Origin: Octopus vulgaris | Taxonomy: Eukaryota | Length of the DNA stretch: 64,000 bases | Direction of reading: 5' to 3' | Assembly: GCA_951406725.2 (NCBI GenBank) | Contig: OX597821.1 | Location: 85,312,001 to 85,376,000, forward strand | Shown here: positions 7,100-37,488 of the stretch, piece after piece | Position numbering within the stretch: position 1 is the first letter of the stretch | How the letters are laid out: each line of letters begins with the position of its first letter | Made by a program: the position numbers and the translations under genes | Notes under the pieces: generated by a model | The model's input: only the letters and a program-made list of their open reading frames with translations | Databases searched by the model: none | What the model was told of the DNA's origin: nothing

Positions 7100-8169
7100 G
7101 TAAGATCTATTTAAATAACAATTCTCTAAAGAAATCCAATCTTTAGAGATCTTTGTATTGTTTGCAAATTACCCTAAGTATTATGGTATATCGTTTCCAT
7201 CCTTAGTAATGTTTGACTCCGTCATCCCTGACTAAACAGAACTATGTTCCAGTGATGTGCTAGCTATGACTAACTTGTCTATTTTGCAGCCACAGTATAT
7301 CTAGAACTGTATTATCTAATATGTATGAGAGGGTGTTGAAAGGTTCTTGGTTTTAAGAGTACCATGAAAGGCCTGCTTGGAGGCCCAACTTTCTGAGTTC
7401 TTTTACTGAGCTTAAAAAAAAAACTGAAGGACCACTGCAATAAGTGTGTGAATCTGAGAGGGGAATACATTGAATAAAATCATAATTAACTGGTCCTCTT
7501 GTATTTTCTTTTACCCAAAGCCAAGAACTTTCCAATACCCACTCATACATGCTGTTTTTCAGTTGGTAGTTTGTAATTTGAGGGTGAATTGGTTGATATT
7601 TCTAGTAAGATGCATTATCACATGTATAGTCCCTCATTAACTTTTCCTTAGTAACATCATTGTGCTACTATAGTCCAGTCCTGATCAAGCAGACCTATGA
7701 CATGCAGGTAACTAGCAAACTGACTTGATGTGACATCCATTTGTAAAAAGATTTGATGACTAATTCTGATAGGTCACATGATTACGTAGAGATTCTCTCA
7801 TTGGCTCATATTTAGTAATATTTAATTCACTATCAAAACCTAGGATTGAAATGCATATCTTTGATCTTGCATTTTTAAAGTTTATTGATTAATTAGATTG
7901 CAATAATAATCTTAATTCTGTGATTTCTTTTGAATTTACAGAATGTGTTAAATTTGTAAATGATATTTTCAGTTGTCTCTAAATATTTGACAGTTTTGAG
8001 TGATATTTACTGGGAAATCTGTTAAATAAACAATGTATCTTTAGGACCGCAATAGTGAAATAAGACACCATTCTCTACTCACTAGCTATACTTCAGAGTG
8101 AGAAGCCCCACCACACTTTTTGTCAAGACAAGTATTTTAGTATTAGGCTTGTGTTCTTTGCTATCTTTT

Positions 8170-8760
8170 ATCTTTTACTTGTTTCATGGTGGGGCACTAT
8201 CTTGCAGAGTTTAGTTAAACAAACCAACCACAGTATTCTTTTTCTTTTTTCAATATAGTACTTATTCTATTGGTCTCTTTTGCTGAACCACTAAGTTGTG
8301 GGGATATAAACAAACCAACAGTGGTTGTGAAATAGCAAGAGAGACAAACACACAGACACATTTACACGCACGCACATTTATTCTTTTCTACTCTAGGCAC
8401 AATGCTCGAAATTTTGGGGGAGGGAGCCTGTTGAGTAGATTGACCTCAGTACACAACTGGTACTTAATTTATTGACCCCTCAATCGGATGAAAGACAAAG
8501 TTGACCTTGGCGGAATTTGAACTCAGAACATAAAGACAGATGAAATACCACTAAGTATTTCACCTGGTGTGCTAACATTTCTGTCAGCTCACCACCTTTT
8601 TACACACACACACACACACACACACTTAAGACAGACTACTGCATACACTCACGAGGCATTGGTTGGGCTGGAGCTATAGTAGAAGACACTTGCCCAAAGT
8701 GCCCTACAGTGGGACTGAACTCAAAACCATATGCTTTCAAATGAGCTTCTTAACCACACA
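8170..8760 (-). mobile_element. Diverged SINE family A with a nested family B copy (~8380-8598)
   Basis: The A-family sequence is interrupted at its internal CA microsatellite by a B-family copy. Confidence 0.75.
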
Positions 8761-9144
8761 GTCTTTTTAAAACTCCCACTAACATCAGGTACGGGCAGAC
8801 ATCTTATAATCTTCCAGGTGTTTATATATTCAATTTGATTGGATAATAAAAAGATTAACATTATTAAATATTTCTGACATTTCATACATCAATAGAATTA
8901 CATCGATGCCTTCATCTGTACTGATTGTTTTATTATATATCTAGTCAGCAGTTGTCTATGTGTTCGTGTGTGCGTATATCCGTGTAAATATATTTCTATT
9001 TATTTTACTGGCTTCCATCACTGGTCAGCAGCCAATGTCAAGTGTTTTAGCCAGTCATATCAATCTCTGGGCTTATTTTGGTCTCCTACTTGTTTTACTG
9101 ATTTGAATTTGTTGAATCACTAGTTTACAGACTGCAGAGCAGTA

Positions 9145-9340
9145 CATCATCATCATCATCATTTAATGTTCTCTTTCTGTGCTGGCATGGATGGCTTGGA
9201 CAGTTTGACATGGAGCTGGCTACCAGGGAGCTGTCCACACTCCAACTGTCTGTTGTGGCATGGTTTCTACAGCTGGATGCCCTTCCTGATGCCAACCATG
9301 TAGCAGAGTGTGCTGGGTGCTTTTTACATGCCACCAGCAC
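9145..9340 (-). mobile_element. RTE-type 3' tail fragment with (GAT)n end
   Basis: (cat)n followed by the reverse complement of ggcatcaggaagggcatccagctgtagaaac. Similar fragments near 14385-14570, 33600-33840, 45570-45710, 49520-49690 and 63480-63710. Confidence 0.7.
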
Positions 9341-10256
9341 GGGTGTGTTTACATTATTTTTTTATACCTGTGTAAAACCTAGACACACAAACAAGCATGC
9401 ACACAAACTCACACATACGGTAGCCTTTCTAAACAGTTCCTGTCTCCCAAATTTTACATCGTTTTGGTCAAGCTACAACTAATTGTGGTCAAGCTACAAT
9501 CATCCAAGTTAGCATTTAGTAAGATTGAACCTGGAACTACATCATTGCAAAGCAAACTTCTTTGTCACTCACCATACCCTGTGTGTGTATAGATATGTAC
9601 ACAGTATGCACAATGTGCATGTATATCTTAAAAACATTGTGTATACACACACACGCACACACAAAAGTCTGTCTTGTACCTGCAAGCCCATTAGGCTGTA
9701 TCCTATTCCAGTTTCCATAGTGTTTGAGGGACTGTGAGTACATAACCACTCCCGTGACCAGGGCACAAGACCATCATGGAGTTTACTCTGCAGCTGTTAC
9801 TGGTACTCATTTTCAACTGAGTGAAATTGAAGCAAAGTGTAAATGAAGTGCTTTGTTCAAAGTCCCATTGCCCCACCCACTTCTGGAATTGAACTCCTTA
9901 CTTTATGATCATGACCTAAACACTTTAACCACTTGACCTTATACCTTCACTGTGTTTGTGTGGAATGGTGTTACACTGATTTCTGAAAATATACTATCGG
10001 AAAGATATCATCAAAATTACGACTGTTAAGAATTTGTTTAAAAAACTGTGTACTGTTAAGGCTTATTATGAAGAATTATGTTTTGGAGCTCTATTTCGTC
10101 ACCTAATCTAGACATGATAGTTTTGCAGAATTTGTCACATGTCTGAGAATGTGCTAGATTTGCTACATGTGGTAACTACTCTACTTCTCACCATGTAACA
10201 CAGTTGGAGTGGGTGTAACCAAAACATAGTTAGTAGCAGATTGTGTGTGTGTATAC

Positions 10257-10305
<49 letters not shown>

Positions 10306-11811
10306 ATGTGTGTGTGTGTGTGTTGCCTGCCTCTTAGTTGTTGCTAGCAATTCATTTAATCTCCTCCCACACTTTCAGCAACGTTTTTTCTATTAAGTTG
10401 GATTTTTTAAAAAGAGTTTTGTTTCCCCACCCCAACCCCTATTTCCTCTCTCTCAGTAACTAGACATTCCACCAAACTTTTCAGCTAAAATAATTCTGTA
10501 CACTAATTCTTTACTATCATTTCATTTATTTTTTTTTTCATCCTTTTTTAAGGCTGTTTTTACAGTGTTTATTTTCGTATTCCTCACCAGTAAACCATTC
10601 CCCATGACCATCACTATTTGCCGGTTTTTATTTTGCTGTATAAAAGCACTTTCCCACCAATGGTGTAGTCTTCTTTTTTATTATTATTATTATTATTATT
10701 ATCATCATCTCTTGTTTTGATTTACTTTTACCTCACTGTCAGAAAATGTCTCTCATTTCCTTTGCCGGTGCCATGCATGAGAACTGTCACTTGTCTAAAC
10801 ATATGTCTGTTTCTTAACACTACATTTGGTACAGTCTGTGTCACAGTTATTACTGATGTTGGGGGTGGTATACGGTACCAGTTAAGGCTAAACTAATGGC
10901 AATTTTTTTTTCTGCAAATTCTTGAACCAGTCACACCTTGTTTGGACTCGATATTAAATCCTAGACGTTTATTATCATTTTGCTTGAAAGAGCTCTGAAA
11001 ATTTCTGGTTGTTTAAATTCCACTTTGTTTCTTAGTGTCTCTTCCAAATATGTTCTCATTGAAAGCTATTTCATTAAATTCTTTTACTAATAGCTAGCTG
11101 TATGCTTGAAGATGCTTATCCTTTAAGTTTTGATAAACAGATCACAACTATTAATCTCTGATCATGCCCATCTTGTAGGAGAAACCCTCAGTAGCAGCCA
11201 ATTGTAGTCAACTCTGAACGTCTCAGCATGTGCCACAAAATCTCCAGCACAAAATAAATCAGCTTTCTGTTTTTTAATGGTCAGCTTTGTCAGATCTCTC
11301 TAACAGTCATACTATAATTATGATGTCTATTAACACATAGCTTTTAAAAGGTTTATTTCATAGTAATTGTTTGTTTAATATATTAATTTTATTTTCTTCT
11401 TAGAAATCTGTGTTGATTCTTTAACTTATCAAGAGGTGTTAACAAATTAAGACAGATTGCTATGTTGATGAGGTAGACTAATTGCTAGATTGTATAATAC
11501 AGTAATGGAAAATTTAATTAAAAAAAATACTTGTACATTAATCAAGGTGGGGCTATTAATTCTTTTACTAATCTTTGTGTATTTACACAATACTCATGTT
11601 GAAATGTGTCCTGCTTTTGTCTCATTTAATTTTGAAATTACTGACAAATTTAGTAAAATAACTTTGTTGATGTTAAGCTAGGGTTTGAAACAGAAAGTAA
11701 ATTGTGACGGATGGTTTTAATTTAGATAACTTTAAAATGGGAAGCTTGTATCATAGAACTTAGAGTGGTGTCAGGTGGGTTCGTATCAAAAGGGTCAGTG
11801 AGTTGGTATGC

Positions 11812-12037
11812 AAGATGGCAGAATCGTTAGCACGCCGGGCAAAATGCTTAGTGGTATTTCGTCTGCCGTTACGTTGTGAGTTCAAATTCCGCCGAGGTCG
11901 ACTTTGCCTTTCATCCTTTCGGGGTTGATAAATTAAGTACCAGTTATGCACTGGGGTCGATATAATCGACTTAATACCTATGTCTGTCCTTGTTTGTCTC
12001 CTCTATGTTTAGCCCCTTGTGGGTAATAAAGAAATAG
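11812..12037 (+). mobile_element. SINE family B
   Basis: tggcagaatcgttagcacgccgggc...gttcaaattccgccgagg...gccccttgtgggtaataaagaaat. Confidence 0.9.
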
Positions 12038-13424
12038 GTATCAAAATAACATAGATTATTCTTAACAAGATTATCCTGCTTACTCTTAGCAAGATTAAAG
12101 GGAAATAACATTCTTAGTCCAGTTCAGAGTATGTGTAGTGATTAATCTTAAGTTGACTAAGAACTCAAACCTGTAGCATTTTTGTATCCCCATTTTTTTA
12201 ATATAAATTTATATTTTCTATATTTAATATAAAATACAGTGTACATTTAAACACATTCAGCGGTATCCATCATAGGACTCCCTTACGCTAGAAGGAACAA
12301 CTAAAGTCCAAACCACTAATTAGGGATAAATTCTCAAAGGGAATGAAAAATAAAATCATTTACCATCTATTTCCTGAACCATACACTAGGCCACTGGTAG
12401 TAAAAATTTCTAAAACCTTTATTACCCTGATATTATTAAATTTTCTATATTTATGTAGTTCTTATTCTTAATAGTTTTTTTTTTTATGAATTAACAGAAA
12501 CGAAAATATCAGGGTAGCAAGCACTTTGATTCACTGTTCAGCGTTCTCTTGTATATTTCAAGGAACACTTTCCTATGATGTATCTGTAGCATCTGTTTAT
12601 AATAGGGTTAAATGTGTCGTGGGTATTTAGCTTCAGTAAAAGGTTTAAGGTCTATGTTATTTTTAGACATCACTAAAACAAGGGAATGTTAGCCTCTTTT
12701 ATGTATACATAGCTATGAGTGCATGTCCATAGACTAACACTACCTTATATATTTATGGGGGTGGATATGGCTCACTATTGTTCCATTACGACCATTATTC
12801 AACTTTGTGCCTGCTAGTAGCTTTCAGATGTCATTTCAAAGCCATACACACAGCAATGCACACACAGAAGCTCTTGTATGTGATTCGAGAACTCCCTCAT
12901 GTGTGTGTGTGTGTGTAATGTATATAAATATTTGTAAGGTTATGTTAATTACATTTTGCCGTCACTGTTACCATGTGTTGAACAAATGATAAATCTTTAT
13001 GTGCCTATTATCATAATCACTGACATAATGAGCTAACGACAATTGAGTAGATAAGCATCACTGTTTGGTCCGGGCAGAGTGGGGTGCACACGTACATCTA
13101 TGAACTATTTGTACATGTTCTCTAATTATTTCATACTTTAACGAGTGAAAACAGTTATCACACCAGAAGGGGACAATTTGACTGACTAATTTCTTACATC
13201 TCTGCTGCTCTTGGTATCTTTAATAGCTTCAACGTCTTAATATCCTGTTACTTATTTAAGTAGAGCATCTATTTGTCAACTCTAACTCCATCTACTTATA
13301 GACATTTACTCATTTAGTTTCAGTCTACAGTATTACAGCCATATTTAATCTGACTGATTTCATTTTCCTTCAATTAAGTCAACTTGTACTTTTATATTGA
13401 ATAATTTCTTAAAAGCAACTGTAT

Positions 13425-13836
13425 TACTCTTTTACTTGTTTCAGTCATTTGACTGCGGCCATGCTGGAGCACCGCCTTTAGTCGAGCAAATCGACCCCGG
13501 GACTTATTCTTTGTAAGCCCAGTACTTATTCTATCGGTCTCTTTTTGCCAAACCGCTAAGTGACGGGGACGTAAACACACCAGCATCGGTTGTCAAGCAA
13601 TGCTAGGGGAACAAACACAGACACACAAACATACACACACACACACATACATATATATATATACATATATACGACGGGCTTCTTTCAGTTTCCGTCTACC
13701 AAATCCACTCACAAGGCTTTGGTCGGCCCGAGGCTATAGCAGAAGACACTTGCCCAAGGTGCCATGCAGTGGGACTGAACCCGGAACCATGTGGTTGGTA
13801 AGCAAGCTACTTACCACACAGCCACTCCTGCACCTA
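13425..13836 (-). mobile_element. SINE family A, full length and close to consensus
   Basis: Near-consensus reverse-complement copy. Confidence 0.9.
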
Positions 13837-15621
13837 TGTTAAGTTCTTCCTGCTTTCGTGATGTAAGTTGTTGTTTAACCCCAGGATTATTCTGCATCCA
13901 GCAGACAGACTGATGGTGAGAAGCATTCCATTTGAGACCAGATGTTTTTTACTCCAGATTAATTATTCCTGAAATTACATTATCCAATACCTTTTCTTTT
14001 TTTCTTAACAACGAAGTGGAATTTCAGAGATTTTGCTACTATTTCTAGCAAGTTGAGCATCCACTTAGAGGCTCTTTTAGTCTGGGTTGTAGGCCTCACA
14101 TTATCACTCACTTTAACACTTCCACCAGGTCCATGGATGCTTTTTGCAGTTCACTTGCCTTAAAAATTTTCTCTCCGCACCCTTGTTTTCCTACTCAGGC
14201 TTTGGTATTTATCATGTTTATTTATGCATAATATGCCCTTGTTTGAAGTACACATACAATTAATTCTTGTACCACTAATTATGGGCTTTGAAATTATGGG
14301 AAAAAAATCTCTCTTTCCTGCAATAATACCCACTTTTTTTTTTTTTATGTAGTAATATGATGTATAGAAATGTTTTATCATTTTCATCATTTAACATCCA
14401 TTTTCCATGCTGGCATGTGTTGGCTGGTCTGACAGGACCTGATGATGTGTCTCAAGGATTGCATTGAGTTCCAGTGTCTGCTTTGGCATAGTTCTCATGG
14501 CTGGATACCCTTCCTAATGCCAACCACTTTACTGCATGGGCTGGGTGATTTTTTTCATGCCACCTGCACTATTCAGGTTGCTTTGCAGTTTGCAAGGCTA
14601 TAAACTCCGGGGTAGGTGGGAGTACAGAATGAGAGGTGCTTCATGCTAGGGGATGAGGGAAAGTACTGTGAGTGTTTGGGGCATTGCATGTTCTCGCAGA
14701 GGGATCTGCATGGATTCTTACATCTTGTTGGGGTGAGAAAAAGAGAAAATGATCAGTAGAAGCTTCAAAACATAGATAACGACAATGTGTCCAAGGTGGC
14801 CCCACAAGGCACCAGCTGAGTAGAAGTTTATGGGTGGTTTGTGAGATTGTACGAGAAGGTGAAGGCAGACTGGCCAAAATGGGTAGGTTGAAGGTTGAAT
14901 GAGGCAAGAGCCATGAGCTGGGAAGACAGGAATGCTGAAGAATTTGTGGGTGGGGACAAGCAGTAGGAGTAGATAGATGATACAGTTGGTGAAGGATGGA
15001 AAAGAAGGGAGAGGGAAAATACAGGCATAGTGCATGAGGGTGGGGGAGTCACTGAAACAGGTGGAAAACCCAAAGTTTAGCATTTCCAGAACTCAGTTTT
15101 GCTGAGGCGAGCAAGTCTTTTTGAGAACCTCATATCGCCAGAGATCCTGGTCCTTAGATATTTTATAATCGTTGTCTAGAAAACGTTACAAAAGTTCAAC
15201 CATCTTCATGAAAACCAAAAGCAAATTTGGAAATGACTCATGAACTCTGTTGGTTAATATAACATTTTAACTTTATTGGCAAACGGTTGGAATTATTATT
15301 TACTTTCAATCTTCAATATAGAAAGCTTTAAAAAACATTTTACAGAATGTAAACACTTTCATTATTGAATTCTTCCATTTAAATACTTTTATTATGGAAT
15401 GCTTTTCTTTCAATAGAAATGTATACTGTAATGGCTCATTAGAATAACCATAGTATTTTAGAAACAAGAATATTTATTTTCATAAAGAATCAATAAGGAT
15501 AATACATCTATATTGTCGTTATCAATTTAATTTTTGCATTAAAGCGGGATTTGGAGTAATGAAATTTACATTCTTAGTTAAAGTAAAAAAAGTATTTCAT
15601 TTTATGTTAACGTTCAAATAA

Positions 15622-15660
<39 letters not shown>

Positions 15661-17284
15661 CTCTGATGAATGTATTACATTCAATCTTTCTGTATGAAAG
15701 ATTGATTGCAGCAGTCTCATGGTATCTATGGTTGTGAGTTGCACCAAACAGTATATTATTGCTATCATAACTATTACTATTTTTGTTAATTCACATCTGG
15801 TCTTGCCACTCCAACTATGGTTGCACACTTCACTGGAGTGGAGTTGACTAAAATTTAGTTCTCATGTGAACTGTGCACCCCTAATATTGGCTTCCAATTT
15901 TGGCACAATGCCAGCAATTTTGGGGCAGGGGCCAGTATTTACATTGATCCCAGGCACTCAACTGGTACTTATTTTATCAGCCCTAAAAGGTTGAAGGACC
16001 AAGTCAACCCTGGTGGTATTTGAGTGCATCCCTGATATTGAGGTTTAGAAATCTGGGAAAACATGGTGAGTATACATGAATCTTGCCCTCGTTTCACTTG
16101 TAAGAAATGCATTCAGTGAATGATACACTCCAACAGTTTGTGTGTAATTTTTCTAATTTGCAGAGCTATCCTACCTACATATAAGAGAAATAGTTGTAAT
16201 ATAATTTATAAAAAAATAAAGAAAAATCCATGGGACATACTTTACCACCTTGTTATTTATGTTGTTTTTTCTCTACATCATTTAAGTTCTTTATTGATAA
16301 TGTATTCTAGTATGTTGGAATTAGATAATAAGTCTCTAAAATGATGTTTGCTAGAGTTCTGTAAAAGTAGATAGTTGGTGTAGGTGATGGCAGAAACGAT
16401 TTAAAACAGCTGCCTATGATAAAAATCTATTGCTGACTGATTGATTGATTAACTGAAACAATATATGGTGTTTGCATCTGAAATGTGTTACTGGCAAGTC
16501 TGGATAAAATTATAGCAGGAGTGTACAGGAAGCTAAATGATTGGCTGGACTCTGATAGAAATACGAACATTAACCCATGAACTGTGCAAGGCCAGTATAC
16601 TGTCCAGTCAATGACCTTTTCCAATGCCCCAAATTGCATTTGCTGTTTCATGTGCAAGGGGTAAACTTTGACCTAACAACAGTGTTGGCCAATCGAAGGA
16701 CAGGATACAGAATACCGCCATATTTTTTCCTAAAAGATCTAGCTTGATTGGAGAAAAGGAGGCCCAGACAAAAGATGAAGACAGACTCCCAGATCAGTTG
16801 AATGTGGCATGCATCCTTTAGATTGTTTACATCGCTGTTTCACTGTCTGTTCACTACAATCCTCCTCTGCTATTTCAGTAAATATGCAATATTTTTACCA
16901 TGTTCTGATGCTGGAAAGAATGGATCCCAACACATGCTGTTGCTATGGTTTCTGAGTTGTATGGTGACAAAATGGGCAGTGAGGTCAATTAGAACTTTGG
17001 CTCTGATAGTGGCAGTGAAGCTTCTATGGATGAGCCCAAGTCAGCAGATCTAGAGTCTAGCAGCAACACTGCTGATAACTCTGATTGGGAGATCTGGGTG
17101 AATGTGGCAGGGGCAGTCTGTGGATGAGAGTGAATAATAATCACAATGAAGTTGTGAAGCATTGATTTTGAGCTGACCACAAAATCTTTGCTTAATGTAA
17201 ATGACTGGACACCACTCAAAGACTTTGTAAATCTGTGCCTGGCATACTAACGATTCACCCAGCTTGCCACCTTTTTATTAATGT

Positions 17285-17492
17285 TGGTTTCAAATTTTGA
17301 CACAGGGCCAGCATGTTTGGGAGAGGAGGTAAATCAATTTACATCAACCCCAGTACTTAACTGGTTCTTATTTTATCAACCCCGAAAGGATGAAAGGCAA
17401 AGCTGATCTCGGCAGAATTTGAACTCGGAATGTAATGATGGACAAAATGTCACTTAACAGTTTACCCTGTTTGCTGACAATTCTGCCAGCTC
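17285..17492 (-). mobile_element. SINE family B variant (alternative tail ggcctgtgtcaaaatttgaaacc)
   Basis: Central domain ccccgaaaggatgaaaggcaaag; related diverged copies near 4380-4570, 15890-16025, 18085-18290 and 59445-59675. Confidence 0.75.
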
Positions 17493-18684
17493 ACTGTTCT
17501 TTTTTTTGTCCTTCTTTAGTTTCACCAAACTTGCTCCCACCATCCTTATCCCATCGCCGTAGGGCTTTTGCAGAGAGAAAAAAGGGTGAGGAGGAAGAGC
17601 TGGATCGAAAAGAAACCAGCCAATGGCGTGAGTTTGTTTAGGGTGGAGATCTCCTTGCCAAGGGGGTTTCCATGCACTACCACCCAAAATGTTACAGCAG
17701 CACTACCTAGAGTAGCATGTGATATCTGGAAGATGGGTTGCAATGAAATGCCGCTAGCCTCCAATGTCATTAGAGTTGCACCTTTCTAGCAAGTCTGGCT
17801 TTGCTCTCTTCTGCTAGGATCAATCATTGAGTTTGGAGATCTAGCTTCCTCCATTTGATCCACTGTTGGGTCTTAGTTTGGTGTGGTGAGGAACAAGGAC
17901 AGCACTTCTGTGCCCTTGTTTGAACAGATCATGTTTTTAGTTCTGATGGGTGCCCTCATGCCCTCCTCCAAGATCCAGTAAACTGGTTTAGTTGTCAACA
18001 ACCTGACCATGGCTGGAAGGAGTGGGAGTACAAGGTTATCCACCTCAGCACCTAGCCTTCTTATTAATACTAACATTATTAAGACGGTGTATTGGCAGAA
18101 TTGCTAGGACATTGGAAAAAATGCTGAGCTGCATTTGTTCTTGCTCTTTACAATCTGAGTTCAAATCCTGGTGCGATCAATTTTGCCTTTTAGCCTTTTA
18201 GGATTGATAACATAAAGCACCAGTCAAGTGATGGTAGTGACTAAAACCTTTCCATTGAAACTGTTGACCTTGTGCCTAAATTAGAAACCACTATTAGCCT
18301 TGCTATATCACCTTAGACTAGGTCTTTGGATTTACTTACACCATATTCCACACATTAACACTGCTTTACTCTTCTTCAAGGACTTCTCAAAACTGCAGTT
18401 GTATGTCTTATGAAAGGGCTGGGTATCTTAAAATACGAAGACTTTGCAAGTGAAAAGTGTCAAATAAACTAACTTAATATATCACTGTGGAGATAAATTA
18501 AATTATAACTAGAAATAACGAACACTAAAGAATGCAGAGGAAAATTATTTAGAGAGGTTGTTAATTAGGAATGCTGTCGCAATTAATAGCAATTTAATCT
18601 GAACATAGAATAGCAATGTTTTTATTAATGTGTGTGCTGTTTTACACTCATTTCTTCCTGTTAACACGAACTGGATGGATTATA

Positions 18685-19470
18685 TCATCATCATCATCGT
18701 TTAATGTCCGTTCTCCATGCTAGCATGGGTTGGACGATTCGACCGGGGATCTGGGAAGCCAGAAGGCTGCACCAGGCTCCAGTCTGATCTGGCAGTGTTT
18801 CTACAGCTGGATGCCCTTCCTAACACCAACCACTCCAAGAGTGTAGTGGGTGCTTTTTACATGCCACCTGCACAGGTGCCAGGCGAGGCTGGCAACGGCC
18901 ACGATCGGATTGGTGCATTTTATGTGCCACCGGCACAGAAGCCAGTCAAGGTGGCACTGGCATCGGCCACAATTCAGATGGTGCTTTTTACGTGCCACCG
19001 GCACGGAAGCCAGTTGAGGCCACGCTGGCATCGGCCACGATTCAGATAGCGCTTTTTACGTGCCACCGGCACGCTAGCCAGTCTAGGTGGCGCTGGCATC
19101 GGCCACCTTCAGATGGTGCTGTTTATGTGCCACCGGCTCAGGGATCACAACTGCAGTTTCCATTGATTTTGATGTCGGTGTACTTGACTCAATGGATCTC
19201 CTCAAGCACAGGGTCGAAATGGTGTTTCTTCACTTGCCACCTGCACAGGAGTCAGTCCAGCGGTCCTGGCAACTGCCAGGTGCCAGTCATAGGATTGGTT
19301 CAATTTTGATTTCGATTTCACTTGCCCCAACAGGTCTTCGCAAGCAGAGTTTAGTGTCCAATGAAGGGAGGTTGGCATGGGTGCCTGTCGTCGGATGAGG
19401 GTCGATTTCGACTTCACTTGCCTCAACAGGTCTTTGTGTGTCCAAGGGAGGAAAGACATGCATAAGTGGG
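18685..19470 (-). mobile_element. 5'-truncated RTE-clade LINE (3' UTR with tandem hairpin repeats)
   Basis: Reverse complement of the 3' UTR at 21780-22399; begins with (cat)n. Confidence 0.85.
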
Positions 19471-19674
19471 TTGTCCGAGCTATAGAATATAGAATTGAAT
19501 GCTTTACACACTGCTAACTATTGAAACAAACAGCGGATTGCACCTGTTCTCTGTTAGATCAAGACAAACAATTAAGTGATTTTATGTACTCTGCCGAAGG
19601 ACAGAATACACTTGTAAAAGTGTATTCTACATAGATTTTATTTAAAATATTTAGTATCTTATGTTTTATTTTTT

Positions 19675-20005
19675 TACTTGTTTCACTCATTGGACTGTGG
19701 CCATGCTGGGGCACTGCTTTGAAGGGTTTGTTCAAATGAATCAACCCCAGTACTTATATTTTTAAGACTAGTAGTTACTCTAGTGGGGGAAGTAAACAAA
19801 CTAACACCAGTTGTCAAGCAGTGGTTGGGGAACAAATACAATACACACTCACACAAGCTTCCTCACAGTTTCTGTCTACTAAATTCACTCACAAGGCATA
19901 GGCTAGCATGGAACAAGATACTTGCTCAAGGTGCTGTACAGTGGGATTGAACCCAAAACTATTTGGTTGCAAAGTGAACTTCTTAACCACACAGCCATGT
20001 CTGCA
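19675..20005 (-). mobile_element. Diverged SINE family A
   Basis: Recognisable head (cacagcca) and tail (ggccatgctgg). Confidence 0.7.
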
Positions 20006-20778
20006 CTTAAAAATGTGTTTGTTGGATTTTAGATGAACTAATTTTGAAATTTTTAATTATGAAATTTAACAGTTTTGGCTTAGAAGACCTATAATCAACA
20101 ATATTCCAGCCATGACCTTCTGTCATTTTTTTAGGTGGTTATAATGTATCTAAGACTATCCAATGTATCTGCTTTCTTTTCAAGACAATTGGTATGATTT
20201 CAGGAAGATTTGACTGCTATTTCTTGTAGGTTAAGTAACTGTATAGAAGCTTACCTTATTAGCTCAAATAAAATGAACTCAAACACAGTACTATATAAAC
20301 TCTTTTTACCTTTATATTTTGTCATAGTTTAAGGAGTTCAATTGCTATAGTCAGTGTTTCCTTTTGTTATCCTTATCAAAGTTTGAAATATAAAAGTGCT
20401 GTTGTTAGATTTTCAGTTAAGCTGGTCATGTGTTCATTATAATGCTGACTTCTGACACAATTAATTTGCTCAGTTAAAAAATAGTTCCACAATATATCAA
20501 GAGAACTTCAGTCTTTGACATAAACATAAACAGGAATGTTTTTGCTACATTAGATCAGTCTTGTGAAGTTTTTACTTAAGTACCAAATTTTCTGACAGTA
20601 ATATTTGGTCTCATTGCTTCTCAGGGTAACCAAATACAGTCCCCTATCATATCTGCAATGGTATACCCCTCTCATATCATTGCTGTCTTGATTTAACATT
20701 TCTACAGTGACTTTGCTGTACCAAAATGGCAAACTCCACCCTACACTAAGATTTATTCATAGCTTCCATCTTTGCACC

Positions 20779-21336
20779 TGTAGTGATCCTATACAACGGC
20801 TCGCGCACCGTCAATTTGTATTTTGCGCGTGCGGGGGTTGGTGCTTTCACCACCGGAAGAAGAACCCTTTTGCCTACGTAGCAGTTAGCCGAGGCAAGGG
20901 GATCGTAAGACGTTGACCACCAGCGTCCAGCAAGCAGCGACTTGAGATATGTCTATCGAAGGCAACGGTCACGTATATTTTCTCTCTGTCCGAATTTGAT
21001 TCTAGCAGCAGTCGGCCGAAAGCTTTTAACTAAATTGTTGCCGACCACATCATCTTCCCTGTTCCGGATGCCATCTTTAACCCGTTCTGTTTTTAGCGGC
21101 TGAACATTGTAAATATTACAATCGATTAACTTTCAGCCTTGCGCGCCCAGAACCAAGGACATCAGATATACCACTGATCTCTCACCATAAGAGAATAAAG
21201 TAGTTATATATATTTTACGTTTGCGTCTTGTTGTTTCTGACTGGTAGAGAATTTGGATTTTAAAGCAACGGATAGTGATTGCTTCTCGCACCCCCAAAAG
21301 GTCCAGAGAAGATATTCACACACTAAGTTCGTTACA
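20779..21336 (+). mobile_element. Solo LTR (Ty3/Gypsy-type), 558 bp
   Basis: TGTAGTGA...TCGTTACA termini, 4-bp TSD CACC at 20775-20778 and 21337-21340, internal AATAAA at 21194, CpG-rich relative to flanks. Confidence 0.85.
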
Positions 21337-21513
21337 CACCTAACTTCTTCCTAACTGAAAACAGTGCAGCTCTTTCTATAACTGCCAACCCACTTCTCAC
21401 TAATCTCTAAACTTTAACAATTCAAAATTAATTCACAATAAATTTACTGTCACCTTTCTAGAGTGTTCTTCAATGGCTATGGAGCTTGAATCATCCTTGA
21501 TTCCTTTCTTCAA

Positions 21514-21546
21514 ACCATCTTTATCAACATCAGCCAGTTTCCAAAC
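21514..21546 (+). promoter_or_regulatory. Intronic exon-complementary sequence (candidate ADAR ECS) pairing with 23504-23536
   Basis: accatctttatcaacatcagccagtttccaaac is the exact reverse complement of gtttggaaactggctgatgttgataaagatggt (33/33). The match is observed; the function is inferred. Confidence 0.65.
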
Positions 21547-21611
21547 ATAAGAATAACAACTGATTGCTTCACAAAACTACTGCCTTACATCTAATTATGA
21601 GATGATGCTCC

Positions 21612-22399
21612 ATCACCCTAGCGGTTGAGGGAACCTGTGGAAGAGGCAGACCCAGGAAAACTTGGGACGAGGTGGTGAAGCACGACTTTCGAACTTTAGG
21701 TCTCACTGAGGAAATGACTAGAGACCGAGACCTCTGGAAGTATGCTGTGCATGAGAAGACCCAGCAGGACAAGTGAGACCATAACCCGTGGCCTTCTACA
21801 CGGGATGTAGCCAGCCCACTTATGCATACCTTCCCTTCTTGGGACACAAAACTCTACTTGTGAAGACCTGTTGAGGCAAGTGAGAATCAGAATCGAAATC
21901 GATCAATGGAAATTGCAGCTGAGTTACCAGTGCCGGTGGCACGTAAGAGAACCATCCGAACATGGCCGTTGCCAGCACCGCCCCGACTGGCCTCGTGTCG
22001 GTGGCACGTAAAAAGCACCATCCGTTCGTGGCCGTTGCCAGCGCCGCCCCGACTGGCCTCGTGCCAGTGGCACGTAAAAAGCACCATCCGTTCGTGGCCA
22101 TTGCCAGCCTCACCTGGCCCCCGTGCCGGTGGCATGCAAAAAGCATCATCCGTTCGTGGCCATTGCCAGCCTCGCCTGGCCACCAAAGCACCATCCGATC
22201 GTGGCCGTTTGCCAGACTTGTCTGGCACGTAAAAAGCACCCACTACACTCATGGAGTGGTTAGCGTTAGGAAGGGCATCCAGCCCTAGAAACATTGCCAG
22301 ATCAAACTGGGCCTGGTGCAGCCTTCTGGCTTCCCAGACCCCAGTTGAACCGTCCAACCCATGCTAGCATGGAAAGCGGACGCTAAACGATGATGATGA
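21612..22399 (+). mobile_element. 5'-truncated RTE-clade LINE: ORF C-terminus plus 3' UTR
   Basis: Encodes ...VEGTCGRGRPRKTWDEVVKHDFRTLGLTEEMTRDRDLWKYAV...*, the typical RTE RGRPRKTW/DR..W end; terminates in cgctaaac(gat)n. Confidence 0.9.
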
Positions 22400-22954
22400 A
22401 CGATATCCCTATAATGTTGAAAGACTTGACCAGATTGAAGGCTCAGTAGCTTTTGTTCTATAAACTTTTTAATGCCCACAATTTTTCTTTAAATTTTGCA
22501 CACAAAATATTGACATTTTTGAAGAGTCCTCTCTATGACTGCTAACTGTGGACACAAGTCTATGACATTGTTGATGACAAGATGTGGCATAAGGGTTGAC
22601 TAACTCACTGCAATGACATTGTTGATAGTAGATCATATATAAAAGGACTGACTAGAGCTACAGGACTTTGACAAATCATTCTTGATGGAAGATGCATTTA
22701 TTTACTGAAAAATTAGTAAGATATTCTTAATGATAGATTTCATTAACCAATAAGCTAGTGGACATTGTTTTACTCCAGGGTCTTACAGTTCAGTCTCTCT
22801 GTTACCTGTCATCTTGTTGGAGCTAACATAAGTAGCAGTAATATATTGAGACCACTTCTATCATTCATATTCCTTTGTTTATAACATCTAACTTTTGTGA
22901 GTAATCAAAAAATATTTATTTAAATGAACTAACAGTGTAATATTTCTCTTACAG

Positions 22955-23650
22955 GTCCATGCTTATATAATCAGCCAGCTTAAGAAGGAAATGCCAGCTA
23001 TGTTCGGGAAAGATTCTAAAAAGAAAGAACTTATCAACCGACTATCAACAATTTATGAGCACCTTCAAAGAGAGCACCAGATTTCTCCTGGAGACTTCCC
23101 AAACCTCAAGAGAATGCAAGACCAACTACAGCATCATGATTTCAACAAATTTCATCCTTTGAAACCAAAGCTTTTGGAAACTGTTGACAATATGTTAGCA
23201 GAAGACATAGCTAAACTGATGCGAATCATTCCTCTGGAAGACACCCTCGCTAAATTGAATGACTCAGAAAGCAATACTGTCAAAGGGGGAGCATTTGAAG
23301 GTTACAATGAAAGTCCATTTGGTTTTGGTTGTGGTGAAGGAATTGATGAGGGTCGTGGGGAGTTAGAATGGGTTGTTAGTAATGAGCGTTGCGATTACGA
23401 CAAAGTATTTGACACTCTAAGTCCTATTGATGGCAAAATCACTGGTAGCAACGCCAAGAAAGAAATGGTGAAATCCAAGTTACCAAACTCTGTCTTGGGT
23501 AAAGTTTGGAAACTGGCTGATGTTGATAAAGATGGTATGCTTGATGCTGATGAATGGGCCTTGGCAAATCATTTAATGAAAATTAAACTTCAGGGTCATG
23601 ACCTTCCTTCGGACTTGCCTGAGCATTTGATTCCACCATCAAAACGATAG
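22955..23650 (+). CDS. EHD1: EH domain-containing protein, terminal coding exon (helical domain, linker, C-terminal EH domain)
   Basis: Acceptor tttctcttacAG ending at 22954. Joins the previous exon in frame (RARLAK|VHAYIISQLKKEMPAMFGKD). Contains an SPF linker motif (GPF in other EHDs) and the EH domain KSKLPNSVLGKVWKLADVDKDGMLDADEWALANHL, ending PEHLIPPSKR* with TAG at 23648-23650. Confidence 0.97.
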   Translation, partial: VHAYIISQLKKEMPAMFGKDSKKKELINRLSTIYEHLQREHQISPGDFPNLKRMQDQLQHHDFNKFHPLKPKLLETVDNMLAEDIAKLMRIIPLEDTLAKLNDSESNTVKGGAFEGYNESPFGFGCGEGIDEGRGELEWVVSNERCDYDKVFDTLSPIDGKITGSNAKKEMVKSKLPNSVLGKVWKLADVDKDGMLDADEWALANHLMKIKLQGHDLPSDLPEHLIPPSKR

Positions 23651-23814
23651 TTAATTTATATGCTCTAACACTGGGGCAATTATTCCTTATTTCTCCCCCA
23701 CATCCCCAGTCTCTCTCTCTGGGTTCTTTAATGAGGAGGAGCCGTAGGTCCAGGGAAAGTGTAGGTGGAGTGTTTGTTGACAAATGTCATTCTGAGCTGT
23801 TGTTAAAGTGTCTT

Positions 23815-30434: not shown

Positions 30435-30662
30435 CAACAATATTAAGGAATGGCCCTGATAGGCCATTCGACTCACTAGAAAGAGCAGCCAAACTCAAAC
30501 CGCTAAATAGTTGTAATTCTGAAACTAAAGGAGAAATAAAAACATTTATCCTTGTTTTTATTTCTCCTTTAGTTTCAGAATTACAACTATTTAGCGGTTT
30601 GAGTTTGGCTGCTCTTTCTAGTGAGTCGAATGGCCTATCAGGGCCATTCCTTAATATTGTTG
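30435..30662. repeat. Perfect long inverted repeat (110-bp arms, 8-nt spacer)
   Basis: 30435-30544 is the exact reverse complement of 30553-30662; spacer tttatcct. Confidence 0.95.
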
Positions 30663-37319: not shown

Positions 37320-37328
<9 letters not shown>

Positions 37329-37488
37329 GGAGCTTCTACAGGACTAGAACTGTTTCATTCAAGAGAAATCTTCAGGAAACAGTTCTAGTCCTGTAGAAGC
37401 TCCTTCTATATAATAAATTAATTTTACTCTGCTATGTATTGAGTACCTTATTTACTGTGGTTAACCCCGAATCAACCCGGGACCTACA
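37320..37488. mobile_element. Foldback element in (TA)n, probable Penelope-like pLTR remnant with a partial hammerhead motif
   Basis: 37-bp perfect inverted arms (37320-37356 and 37376-37412). The minus strand across the spacer reads CTGAAGA-tttctcttgaat-GAAAC. Followed by AATAAA and a tail resembling 56365-56401. Confidence 0.6.

What the first reader, a model, noticed from the sequence alone, without database searches (positions are those of the whole stretch)
21514..23536. Intronic 33-nt perfect antisense copy of the EH-domain codons: candidate editing-complementary sequence for EHD recoding
Seen: 21514-21546 in the intron is the exact reverse complement of 23504-23536 in the last exon, ~2 kb away, in sequence I could not assign to any repeat. 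The exonic target is exactly 11 codons, VWKLADVDKDG. Established: this peptide contains the conserved Trp of the NPF-binding pocket and the D-x-D-x-D-G start of the EF-hand loop of EH domains; ADAR recoding sites are often specified by intron-exon duplexes; coleoid cephalopods recode extensively. Inference: the pre-mRNA folds into a 33-bp duplex that could direct A-to-I changes (AAA Lys to Arg/Glu/Gly; GAT Asp to Gly), tuning partner, lipid or Ca2+ binding. The duplex would also loop out the 3' splice site and could couple editing to splicing. An ~800-bp RTE insertion now lies between the arms.
Basis: partly seen in the sequence, partly recalled or inferred. Interest (0 to 1): 0.85.

Follow-up and report, generated by a model that had tools for sequence, protein, structure and literature searches.

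The report
Backwards exon snippet in octopus intron
An octopus membrane-trafficking gene (EHD) carries, in its last intron, an exact 33-base backwards copy of part of its last exon; this is likely the scar of a DNA copying slip, and although the two stretches are predicted to pair in the unspliced RNA, nothing yet shows that this drives RNA editing.

Summary
21514-21546 is the exact reverse complement of 23504-23536 (VWKLADVDKDG, last exon of the single EHD gene of Octopus vulgaris). The 33-mer occurs only at these two places in the 2.8-Gb genome. It is not an assembly artefact: short-read contigs of 3 of 4 runs laid (three organism labels) carry its left junction and 30 of its 33 bases unchanged. 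Folding predicts the full 33-bp helix.

The editing reading is untested. No RNA reads were available, no EHD entry turned up in six supplement searches (the main octopus tables were not held), and 21 of 21 cephalopod EHD proteins keep the unedited peptide. The duplex is perfect, with no A:C mismatch. All three Asp codons have a disfavoured 5' G, the Trp codon has no A, and conservation is shown only among very close relatives, where neutrality also predicts identity.

Best reading: a young, likely neutral templated inverted insertion that may be edited incidentally. Against this, such copies were rare in a 1.26-Mb background. The scan's notes report similar intronic antisense exon copies in five other genomes (unchecked). 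It is a clean, cheap test case for intron-guided recoding in octopus.

The parts
21514..21546 (-). 33-nt exact inverted copy of exon codons VWKLADVDKDG inside the last intron (36 nt at 97% from 21511)
   Evidence: left junction plus 30 of 33 nt in contigs of X1, X2, X3
23504..23536 (+). template: 11 codons of the EH domain (Trp-Lys and the D-x-D-x-D-G EF-hand loop start)
22955..23650 (+). last coding exon of the single-copy EHD gene (DUF5600 + EH domain, stop TAG 23648-23650)
7100..22954 (+). last intron, 15,855 nt, GT..AG
21613..22399 (+). 5'-truncated RTE-like retrotransposon fragment between the arms; (GAT)n tail; candidate target-site duplication GATGATG at 21601-21607, downstream of the arm
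   Evidence: RTE label recalled from the GRGRPRKTW C-terminal motif; a contig end at the same tail position in X2 suggests it is shared with organism B
20779..21336 (.). solo LTR (TG..CA, CACC duplication) 177 nt upstream of the arm; missing together with its flanks (about 20679-21412) in organisms B and C
18688..19167 (-). inverted partner of the RTE 3' part (511-nt alignment, 78% with 21902-22399); its helix would cross the 33-bp helix

Best explanation
The 33-nt intronic stretch is an exact inverted copy of EHD exon sequence that likely arose once, by a DNA polymerase template switch during replication or break repair, and is likely carried along neutrally rather than kept as an editing guide. 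Shown: the copy, its single-copy template 1,957 nt away (1,165 nt without the RTE), its abrupt ends, and its presence in three close relatives. Inferred: a stalled or broken strand in the intron copied about 33 nt from the opposite strand of the nearby exon and returned, some time before these relatives split. Predicted side effect: before the last intron is spliced the arms can pair into a perfect 33-bp helix, so ADAR may deaminate a few adenosines on both strands at low level, most plausibly in the two Lys codons and in the intron arm.
For: Inverted orientation, short length, abrupt ends and a unique template nearby match the described signature of templated insertions: inverted copies near their template, about 100 germline events of 25 bp or more per human genome (PMC8421209, passages). 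The arm sits in an unstable 276-nt spacer between a solo LTR and an RTE, and about 730 nt just upstream are absent in organisms B and C. The duplex has none of the mismatches that mark many selective sites (10.1101/840884, passages). A perfect match is what neutrality predicts for a young copy: P(no mismatch) 0.44-0.81 for an origin 2.5 My ago under assumed rates of 1-4e-9. 21 of 21 cephalopod EHD proteins keep the unedited peptide. Unnamed Logan proteins of more distant cephalopods (P0133, P0134, P0253, P0254) read through these codons in one contig, whereas exon contigs break at the 33-mer in X1-X3, which hints that no perfect copy exists in those species (indirect). Five earlier scan notes describe the same pattern in other genomes (unchecked).
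Against: No empty-site allele was seen, so the insertion event and junction microhomology are inferred. The distance (1.2-2 kb) is far beyond the 100-bp window used in PMC8421209. Such copies are not common background here: in 1,264,000 nt the only repeat-free, abrupt-ended pair within 5 kb was this one; the 2 others were high-copy repeats. A, B and C show 0 differences over 21413-21543 (131 nt), which is compatible with constraint as well as with recent divergence. The helix is predicted to be very stable (about -57 kcal/mol) in an animal with very active ADARs. Editing was not measured at all.
Confidence: 0.56

Rival explanations
1. The arm is a working editing-complementary sequence. It pairs with the last exon before splicing and directs robust ADAR recoding of the Lys codons (W-K to R; EF-loop K to E or R), possibly helped by the neighbouring inverted RTE pair acting as an ADAR-recruiting element.
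For: Full helix predicted at 37 C and 18 C. An ECS in the upstream intron and nearby inverted repeats as inducers are documented for NEIL1, also at an AAA Lys codon (PMC4053975, passages). A 511-nt, 78% inverted RTE pair lies beside it. The EF-loop Lys is R in 51 of 249 homologs, so recoding could be tolerated. The arm is unchanged in three organism labels. The pattern is rare in the background.
Against: No editing data. No A:C mismatch or bulge. The W-K lysine is K in 244 of 249 homologs. 0 of 21 cephalopod proteins show a recoded residue there (weak, most come from genomes or from assemblies that drop minor variants). No conservation shown beyond very close relatives. The RTE-RTE helix crosses the 33-bp helix and was not in the fold. 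In squid, most neural recoding sites are edited below 1% (PMC9068888, passages) and some substrates need no intron (PMC7192619, passages).
Confidence: 0.15
2. The arm is a neutral piece of EHD RNA that was reverse-transcribed by a retrotransposon enzyme and patched into a break in its own gene, rather than a DNA template switch.
For: The template is exonic, RTE and LTR elements flank the arm within 66 and 177 nt, and RTE-like copies are abundant in the genome.
Against: The RTE's candidate duplication (GATGATG, 21601-21607) lies downstream of the arm and the LTR has its own CACC duplication, so the arm is outside both insertion events. It has no splice junction or poly(A) to mark an RNA origin.
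Confidence: 0.17
3. The helix acts without editing, by slowing or aiding removal of the last intron or by holding the transcript in the nucleus.
For: The arms enclose the 3' splice site and the helix is predicted to be stable.
Against: Neither arm covers the branch point region or the splice site (1,408 and 549 nt away). The exon arm appears only after the splice site is transcribed. 8 of 8 octopod proteins use the same junction.
Confidence: 0.06
4. The arm is an assembly artefact.
For: The right junction (21547-21609) was covered in 0 of 4 runs.
Against: The left junction plus 30 of 33 nt is present in short-read contigs of three runs from three studies and three organism labels, at single-copy depth, and the exon contigs break at the 33-mer in those runs, as expected for a real second copy.
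Confidence: 0.01

Closest known systems
Templated insertions from template switching (MMBIR-type 'MMB-TI'; PMC8421209, passages seen)
   Same: Short inverted copy of a unique nearby sequence with abrupt ends, fixed in the germline.
   Different: The template is 1.2-2 kb away rather than within 100 bp; junction microhomology cannot be scored without the empty allele.
Intronic editing-complementary sequences of ADAR recoding sites: NEIL1 K242R with its ECS in upstream intron 5 (PMC4053975, passages seen); GluA2 Q/R (recalled)
   Same: Intron-exon complementarity in one pre-mRNA; as in NEIL1 the arm is upstream, AAA Lys codons are in the helix and inverted retrotransposon copies lie nearby.
   Different: Editing is not shown here. 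The duplex is perfect, not mismatched. The arm is 2 kb away, with the splice site deep inside the loop. No deep conservation or compensatory change is shown.
Inverted-repeat dsRNA edited promiscuously (Alu-like; 'ubiquitous' editing in squid, PMC9068888, passages seen)
   Same: A perfect duplex made by a duplication accident would be edited without site selectivity.
   Different: Only 33 bp long, and one arm is coding sequence rather than a repeat.

Membership tests
Intronic editing-complementary sequence (ECS) | Complementary to an exonic stretch on the same pre-mRNA | tested here: met
   33 of 33 nt, both inside the EHD transcription unit
Intronic editing-complementary sequence (ECS) | Forms a stable duplex in the transcript context | tested here: met
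   In silico only: 33 of 33 pairs in the fold of 21400-23700; the crossing RTE-RTE helix was outside that fold
Intronic editing-complementary sequence (ECS) | A-to-I editing occurs at an exonic adenosine of the duplex | not testable with these tools
   No raw RNA reads listed; no EHD rows in the supplements held; main octopus site tables not held
Intronic editing-complementary sequence (ECS) | Mismatch or loop architecture that selects a site (typical, not obligatory) | tested here: not met
   Perfect Watson-Crick helix, no A:C mismatch
Intronic editing-complementary sequence (ECS) | Conserved beyond neutral expectation, with compensatory changes | tested here: inconclusive
   Unchanged in three close relatives, expected under neutrality if young; no orthologous intron of a distant octopus or squid could be read
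Intronic editing-complementary sequence (ECS) | Required for editing (deletion abolishes it) | not testable with these tools
   Needs a minigene assay
Templated inverted insertion | Short inverted copy of a nearby single-copy template, not a transposon part | tested here: met
   Two places genome-wide; outside the LTR and RTE duplications
Templated inverted insertion | Abrupt ends with unrelated flanks | tested here: met
   Flank alignment scores 10 and 10 over 60 nt each side
Templated inverted insertion | Empty-site allele or ortholog and junction microhomology | tested here: inconclusive
   No empty allele among 4 runs; X13 lacks cover there; 2 further matching bases beyond one mismatch at the left end

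The most novel reading that the evidence does not exclude
A copying accident in the common-octopus lineage created, in one step, a new intronic guide that lets ADAR recode lysines in the partner-binding face and EF-hand loop of EHD. It would be a dated birth of a recoding site and direct evidence for long-range intron-exon guides in cephalopod editing, which current studies largely ignore.
Probability: 0.13. Interest if true: 0.62.

Novelty: new member of a known kind. Interest (0 to 1): 0.27.

Why it matters
How coleoid cephalopods specify their many recoding sites is open, and one analysis states that introns are largely ignored in such studies (PMC8891338, passage). A perfect, lineage-restricted intron-exon duplex is a natural experiment. 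If species with the arm edit these codons and outgroups without it do not, new recoding sites can be born by a single templated insertion. If no editing is found, it shows that a stable upstream-intron helix is not enough. Existing public RNA-seq could answer this. As it stands it is most likely an ordinary mutational scar.

Tried and rejected
Run search: no RNA holder listed.

Laying contigs: 21547-21609 was uncovered in 4 of 4 runs, and X13 (organism D) had an unbroken exon contig and no intron contig. Short links to high-copy repeats are often pruned from such contigs (recalled) and X13 depth is about 7, so I draw no conclusion. D shares an exact single-copy non-coding 30-mer with G000, so it is a very close relative and gives no deep test. 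A similar check for B and C was uninformative (3 places).

Published editing tables: no EHD row in the supplements held for PMC8382921, PMC6881472, PMC4384741, PMC9699675 (one file not searched), PMC5850729 and PMC9989829. These files may not contain octopus site lists or may use other gene ids. PMC7703385 had only a PDF, listed but not searched. The PMC9068888 table was too large to read. Liscovitch-Brauer 2017 and Kieken 2010 are not held.

Metagenome loci: 10 EHD-like loci at 32-70% identity; the three longest inverted matches inspected were simple repeats or a local hairpin.

Local hairpin or miRNA-like fold around the arm: z = -0.55, rejected. Cryptic exon starting near 21463: 67 of 489 intronic YAG sites score as high, rejected. 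Other templated pieces in the 276-nt spacer: next best hit E = 0.008 in 464 kb, none convincing. Arrival with the RTE or LTR: rejected on duplication positions. Recoded octopus protein variants: none found. A self-BLAST background timed out and was replaced by a k-mer method.

Full report
Observation. Window 21514-21546 is the exact reverse complement of 23504-23536, which reads in frame as VWKLADVDKDG. The match runs to 36 nt with one mismatch and ends abruptly. Chance expectation is about 1.5e-13. With up to two mismatches the 33-mer occurs at these two places only in the 2.8-Gb genome, and the last exon has no paralog or retrocopy.

Gene. The exon encodes DUF5600 and EH domains, aligns to the solved EH domain of EHD1 and is 100% identical to O. 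sinensis EHD3. The last intron is 7100-22954 and the last-exon CDS 22955-23650; the target lies 549 nt past the 3' splice site. That the Trp is the NPF-pocket residue and that the lipid-binding K483 of EHD1 is the Lys just before the duplex (23501-23503) is recalled numbering; PMC3769341 (passages) confirms only the role of K483 and of the positive surface.

Surroundings. The arm lies in a 276-nt unique spacer. Upstream is a solo LTR, 20779-21336, with TG..CA ends and a CACC duplication. Downstream is a 5'-truncated RTE-like fragment, 21613-22399, whose candidate duplication GATGATG (21601-21607) lies after the arm. The arm is therefore outside both insertion events. Without the RTE the arms would be 1,165 nt apart. 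The RTE has an inverted partner at 18688-19167 (511 nt, 78%), whose helix would enclose the arm and cross the 33-bp helix.

Reads. I laid 4 of 21 listed runs, all contigs, on 21310-21640. In X1 (organism A), X2 (B) and X3 (C) a contig runs from unique intron 30 nt into the 33-mer with no other letters, at depths similar to the exon contigs (75.7 vs 53-61; 45.9 vs 46-49; 7.9 vs 4.7-6.7), and the exon contigs break at the 33-mer. This removes the artefact reading, though X1 may be the source sample. B and C are identical to the window over 21413-21543 but lack about 20679-21412. The exon-side contig of X2 ends at the RTE tail as in X1 (1,164 vs 1,165 nt), so the RTE is probably shared. The right junction was uncovered in all four runs and X13 (D) had no intron contig; both are inconclusive, and D is a very close relative. 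Organism names were coded and I did not resolve them.

Age and constraint. As a yardstick, O. vulgaris and O. sinensis split about 2.5 My ago and O. bimaculoides about 34 My ago (10.1101/2023.05.16.540928, passages). With assumed neutral rates of 1-4e-9 per site per year, the chance of no mismatch is 0.44-0.81 for a 2.5-My-old copy, 0.13-0.60 at 10 My and 0.00-0.22 at 34 My. Identity among close relatives thus says little. One indirect hint: unnamed Logan proteins of more distant cephalopods that appear to start within the last exon (P0133, 97% identical; P0134, P0253, P0254) read through these codons on one contig, which a second exact copy tends to prevent. An imperfect arm would not show this way.

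Folding and editing potential. In 21400-23700 all 33 pairs are in the minimum-energy fold with probabilities 0.93-1.0 at 37 C and 18 C; opening costs are 3.5 and 8.7 kcal/mol, against about -57 for the helix. That fold omits the upstream RTE partner. Of 9 exon-arm adenosines, 4 have a 5' G, including all three Asp codons; ADAR's dislike of 5' G is recalled. The Trp codon has no A. Plausible targets are 23511 (K to R) and 23528-23529 (K to E, R or G). Among 249 of 252 homologs with the motif, the three Asp positions are D in 249, 248 and 249, the W-K lysine is K in 244 and R in 5, and the loop lysine is K in 173 and R in 51. Perfect duplexes are edited promiscuously and A:C mismatches favour selected sites (10.1101/840884, passages). 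An upstream-intron ECS with nearby inverted repeats has precedent in NEIL1 (PMC4053975, passages). In squid, 54% of neural recoding sites are edited below 1% (PMC9068888, passages), and some substrates need no intron (PMC7192619, passages).

Direct editing evidence. None either way. No RNA holder was listed. Six supplement searches gave no EHD row, and the main octopus tables were not held or too large; unseen supplements may well contain the answer. 21 of 21 cephalopod-type proteins keep the unedited peptide, which is weak because most derive from genomes or consensus assemblies. A literature search with octopus, squid, RNA editing, recoding and EHD1 found 78 papers holding at least four terms; none of the 40 listed contained 'EHD1'. 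A search for inverted duplications creating editing sites listed 15 of 29 papers, none containing 'inverted duplication'.

Background. In 1,264,000 nt from five blocks, 178 exact two-copy pairs of 22 nt or more passed filters; 4 had abrupt ends, all inverted, 3 within 5 kb. A mismatch-tolerant version gave the same 3. The two others proved to be high-copy repeats; the distant pairs were not checked. So repeat-free copies like this one are rare, which counts against calling it common noise. Zero unselected cases in 1.26 Mb still allows up to about 2.4 per Mb. Earlier notes of this scan describe intronic antisense exon copies in five other genomes, four read as copying scars (not checked by me).

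Mechanism. Shown: an inverted, short, abrupt copy of a unique nearby template, shared by close relatives. Inferred: a single template-switch insertion of the kind described in PMC8421209 (passages), at a longer distance than that study searched, now drifting (0.56). Predicted: transient pairing before the last intron is removed, with low, unselective editing. Rivals: RNA-templated capture (0.17), working ECS (0.15), splicing effect (0.06), artefact (0.01). It works like an ECS only in the sense that it can pair; membership is unproven because editing and conservation are untested.

Verdict. Real and unusual, probably an ordinary mutational scar; new member of a known kind; interest 0.27. It is worth one look in public neural RNA-seq and one alignment to the O. 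bimaculoides intron, which together would settle it.

Noticed in passing
window 30435-30544 / 30553-30662: A perfect 110-bp inverted repeat with an 8-nt loop, the longest exact inverted pair in the window.
   Followed up: no
window 20679-21412: About 730 nt including the solo LTR are present in the window and in X1 but absent in organisms B and C, whose contigs join about 20678 to 21413.
   Followed up: partly
window 18688-19473 and 21812-22399: Two RTE-like copies in opposite orientation in the same intron could form a long dsRNA; further inverted pairs lie at 8430-8589/11813-11970 and 11813-11965/17339-17491.
   Followed up: partly
proteins P0002, P0003, P0004, P0131: Near-identical decapod-type EHD proteins from unnamed assemblies differ by I381V and S312G; both could result from A-to-G changes and may be recoding elsewhere in EHD, or species differences.
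   Followed up: no
75,097 and 43,346 nt upstream of the window start (G000:C8): The first EHD coding exon and a small optional exon lie far upstream; the coding span is about 99 kb.
   Followed up: partly
L024:7545-7962 (G000:C8:85119545-85119962): A 418-bp MITE-like family with 30-33-bp terminal inverted repeats; 3,223 candidates in the genome, 40 scored, 93-96% alike.
   Followed up: partly
window 37320-37356 / 37376-37412: A 37-bp perfect inverted repeat with a 19-nt loop.
   Followed up: no
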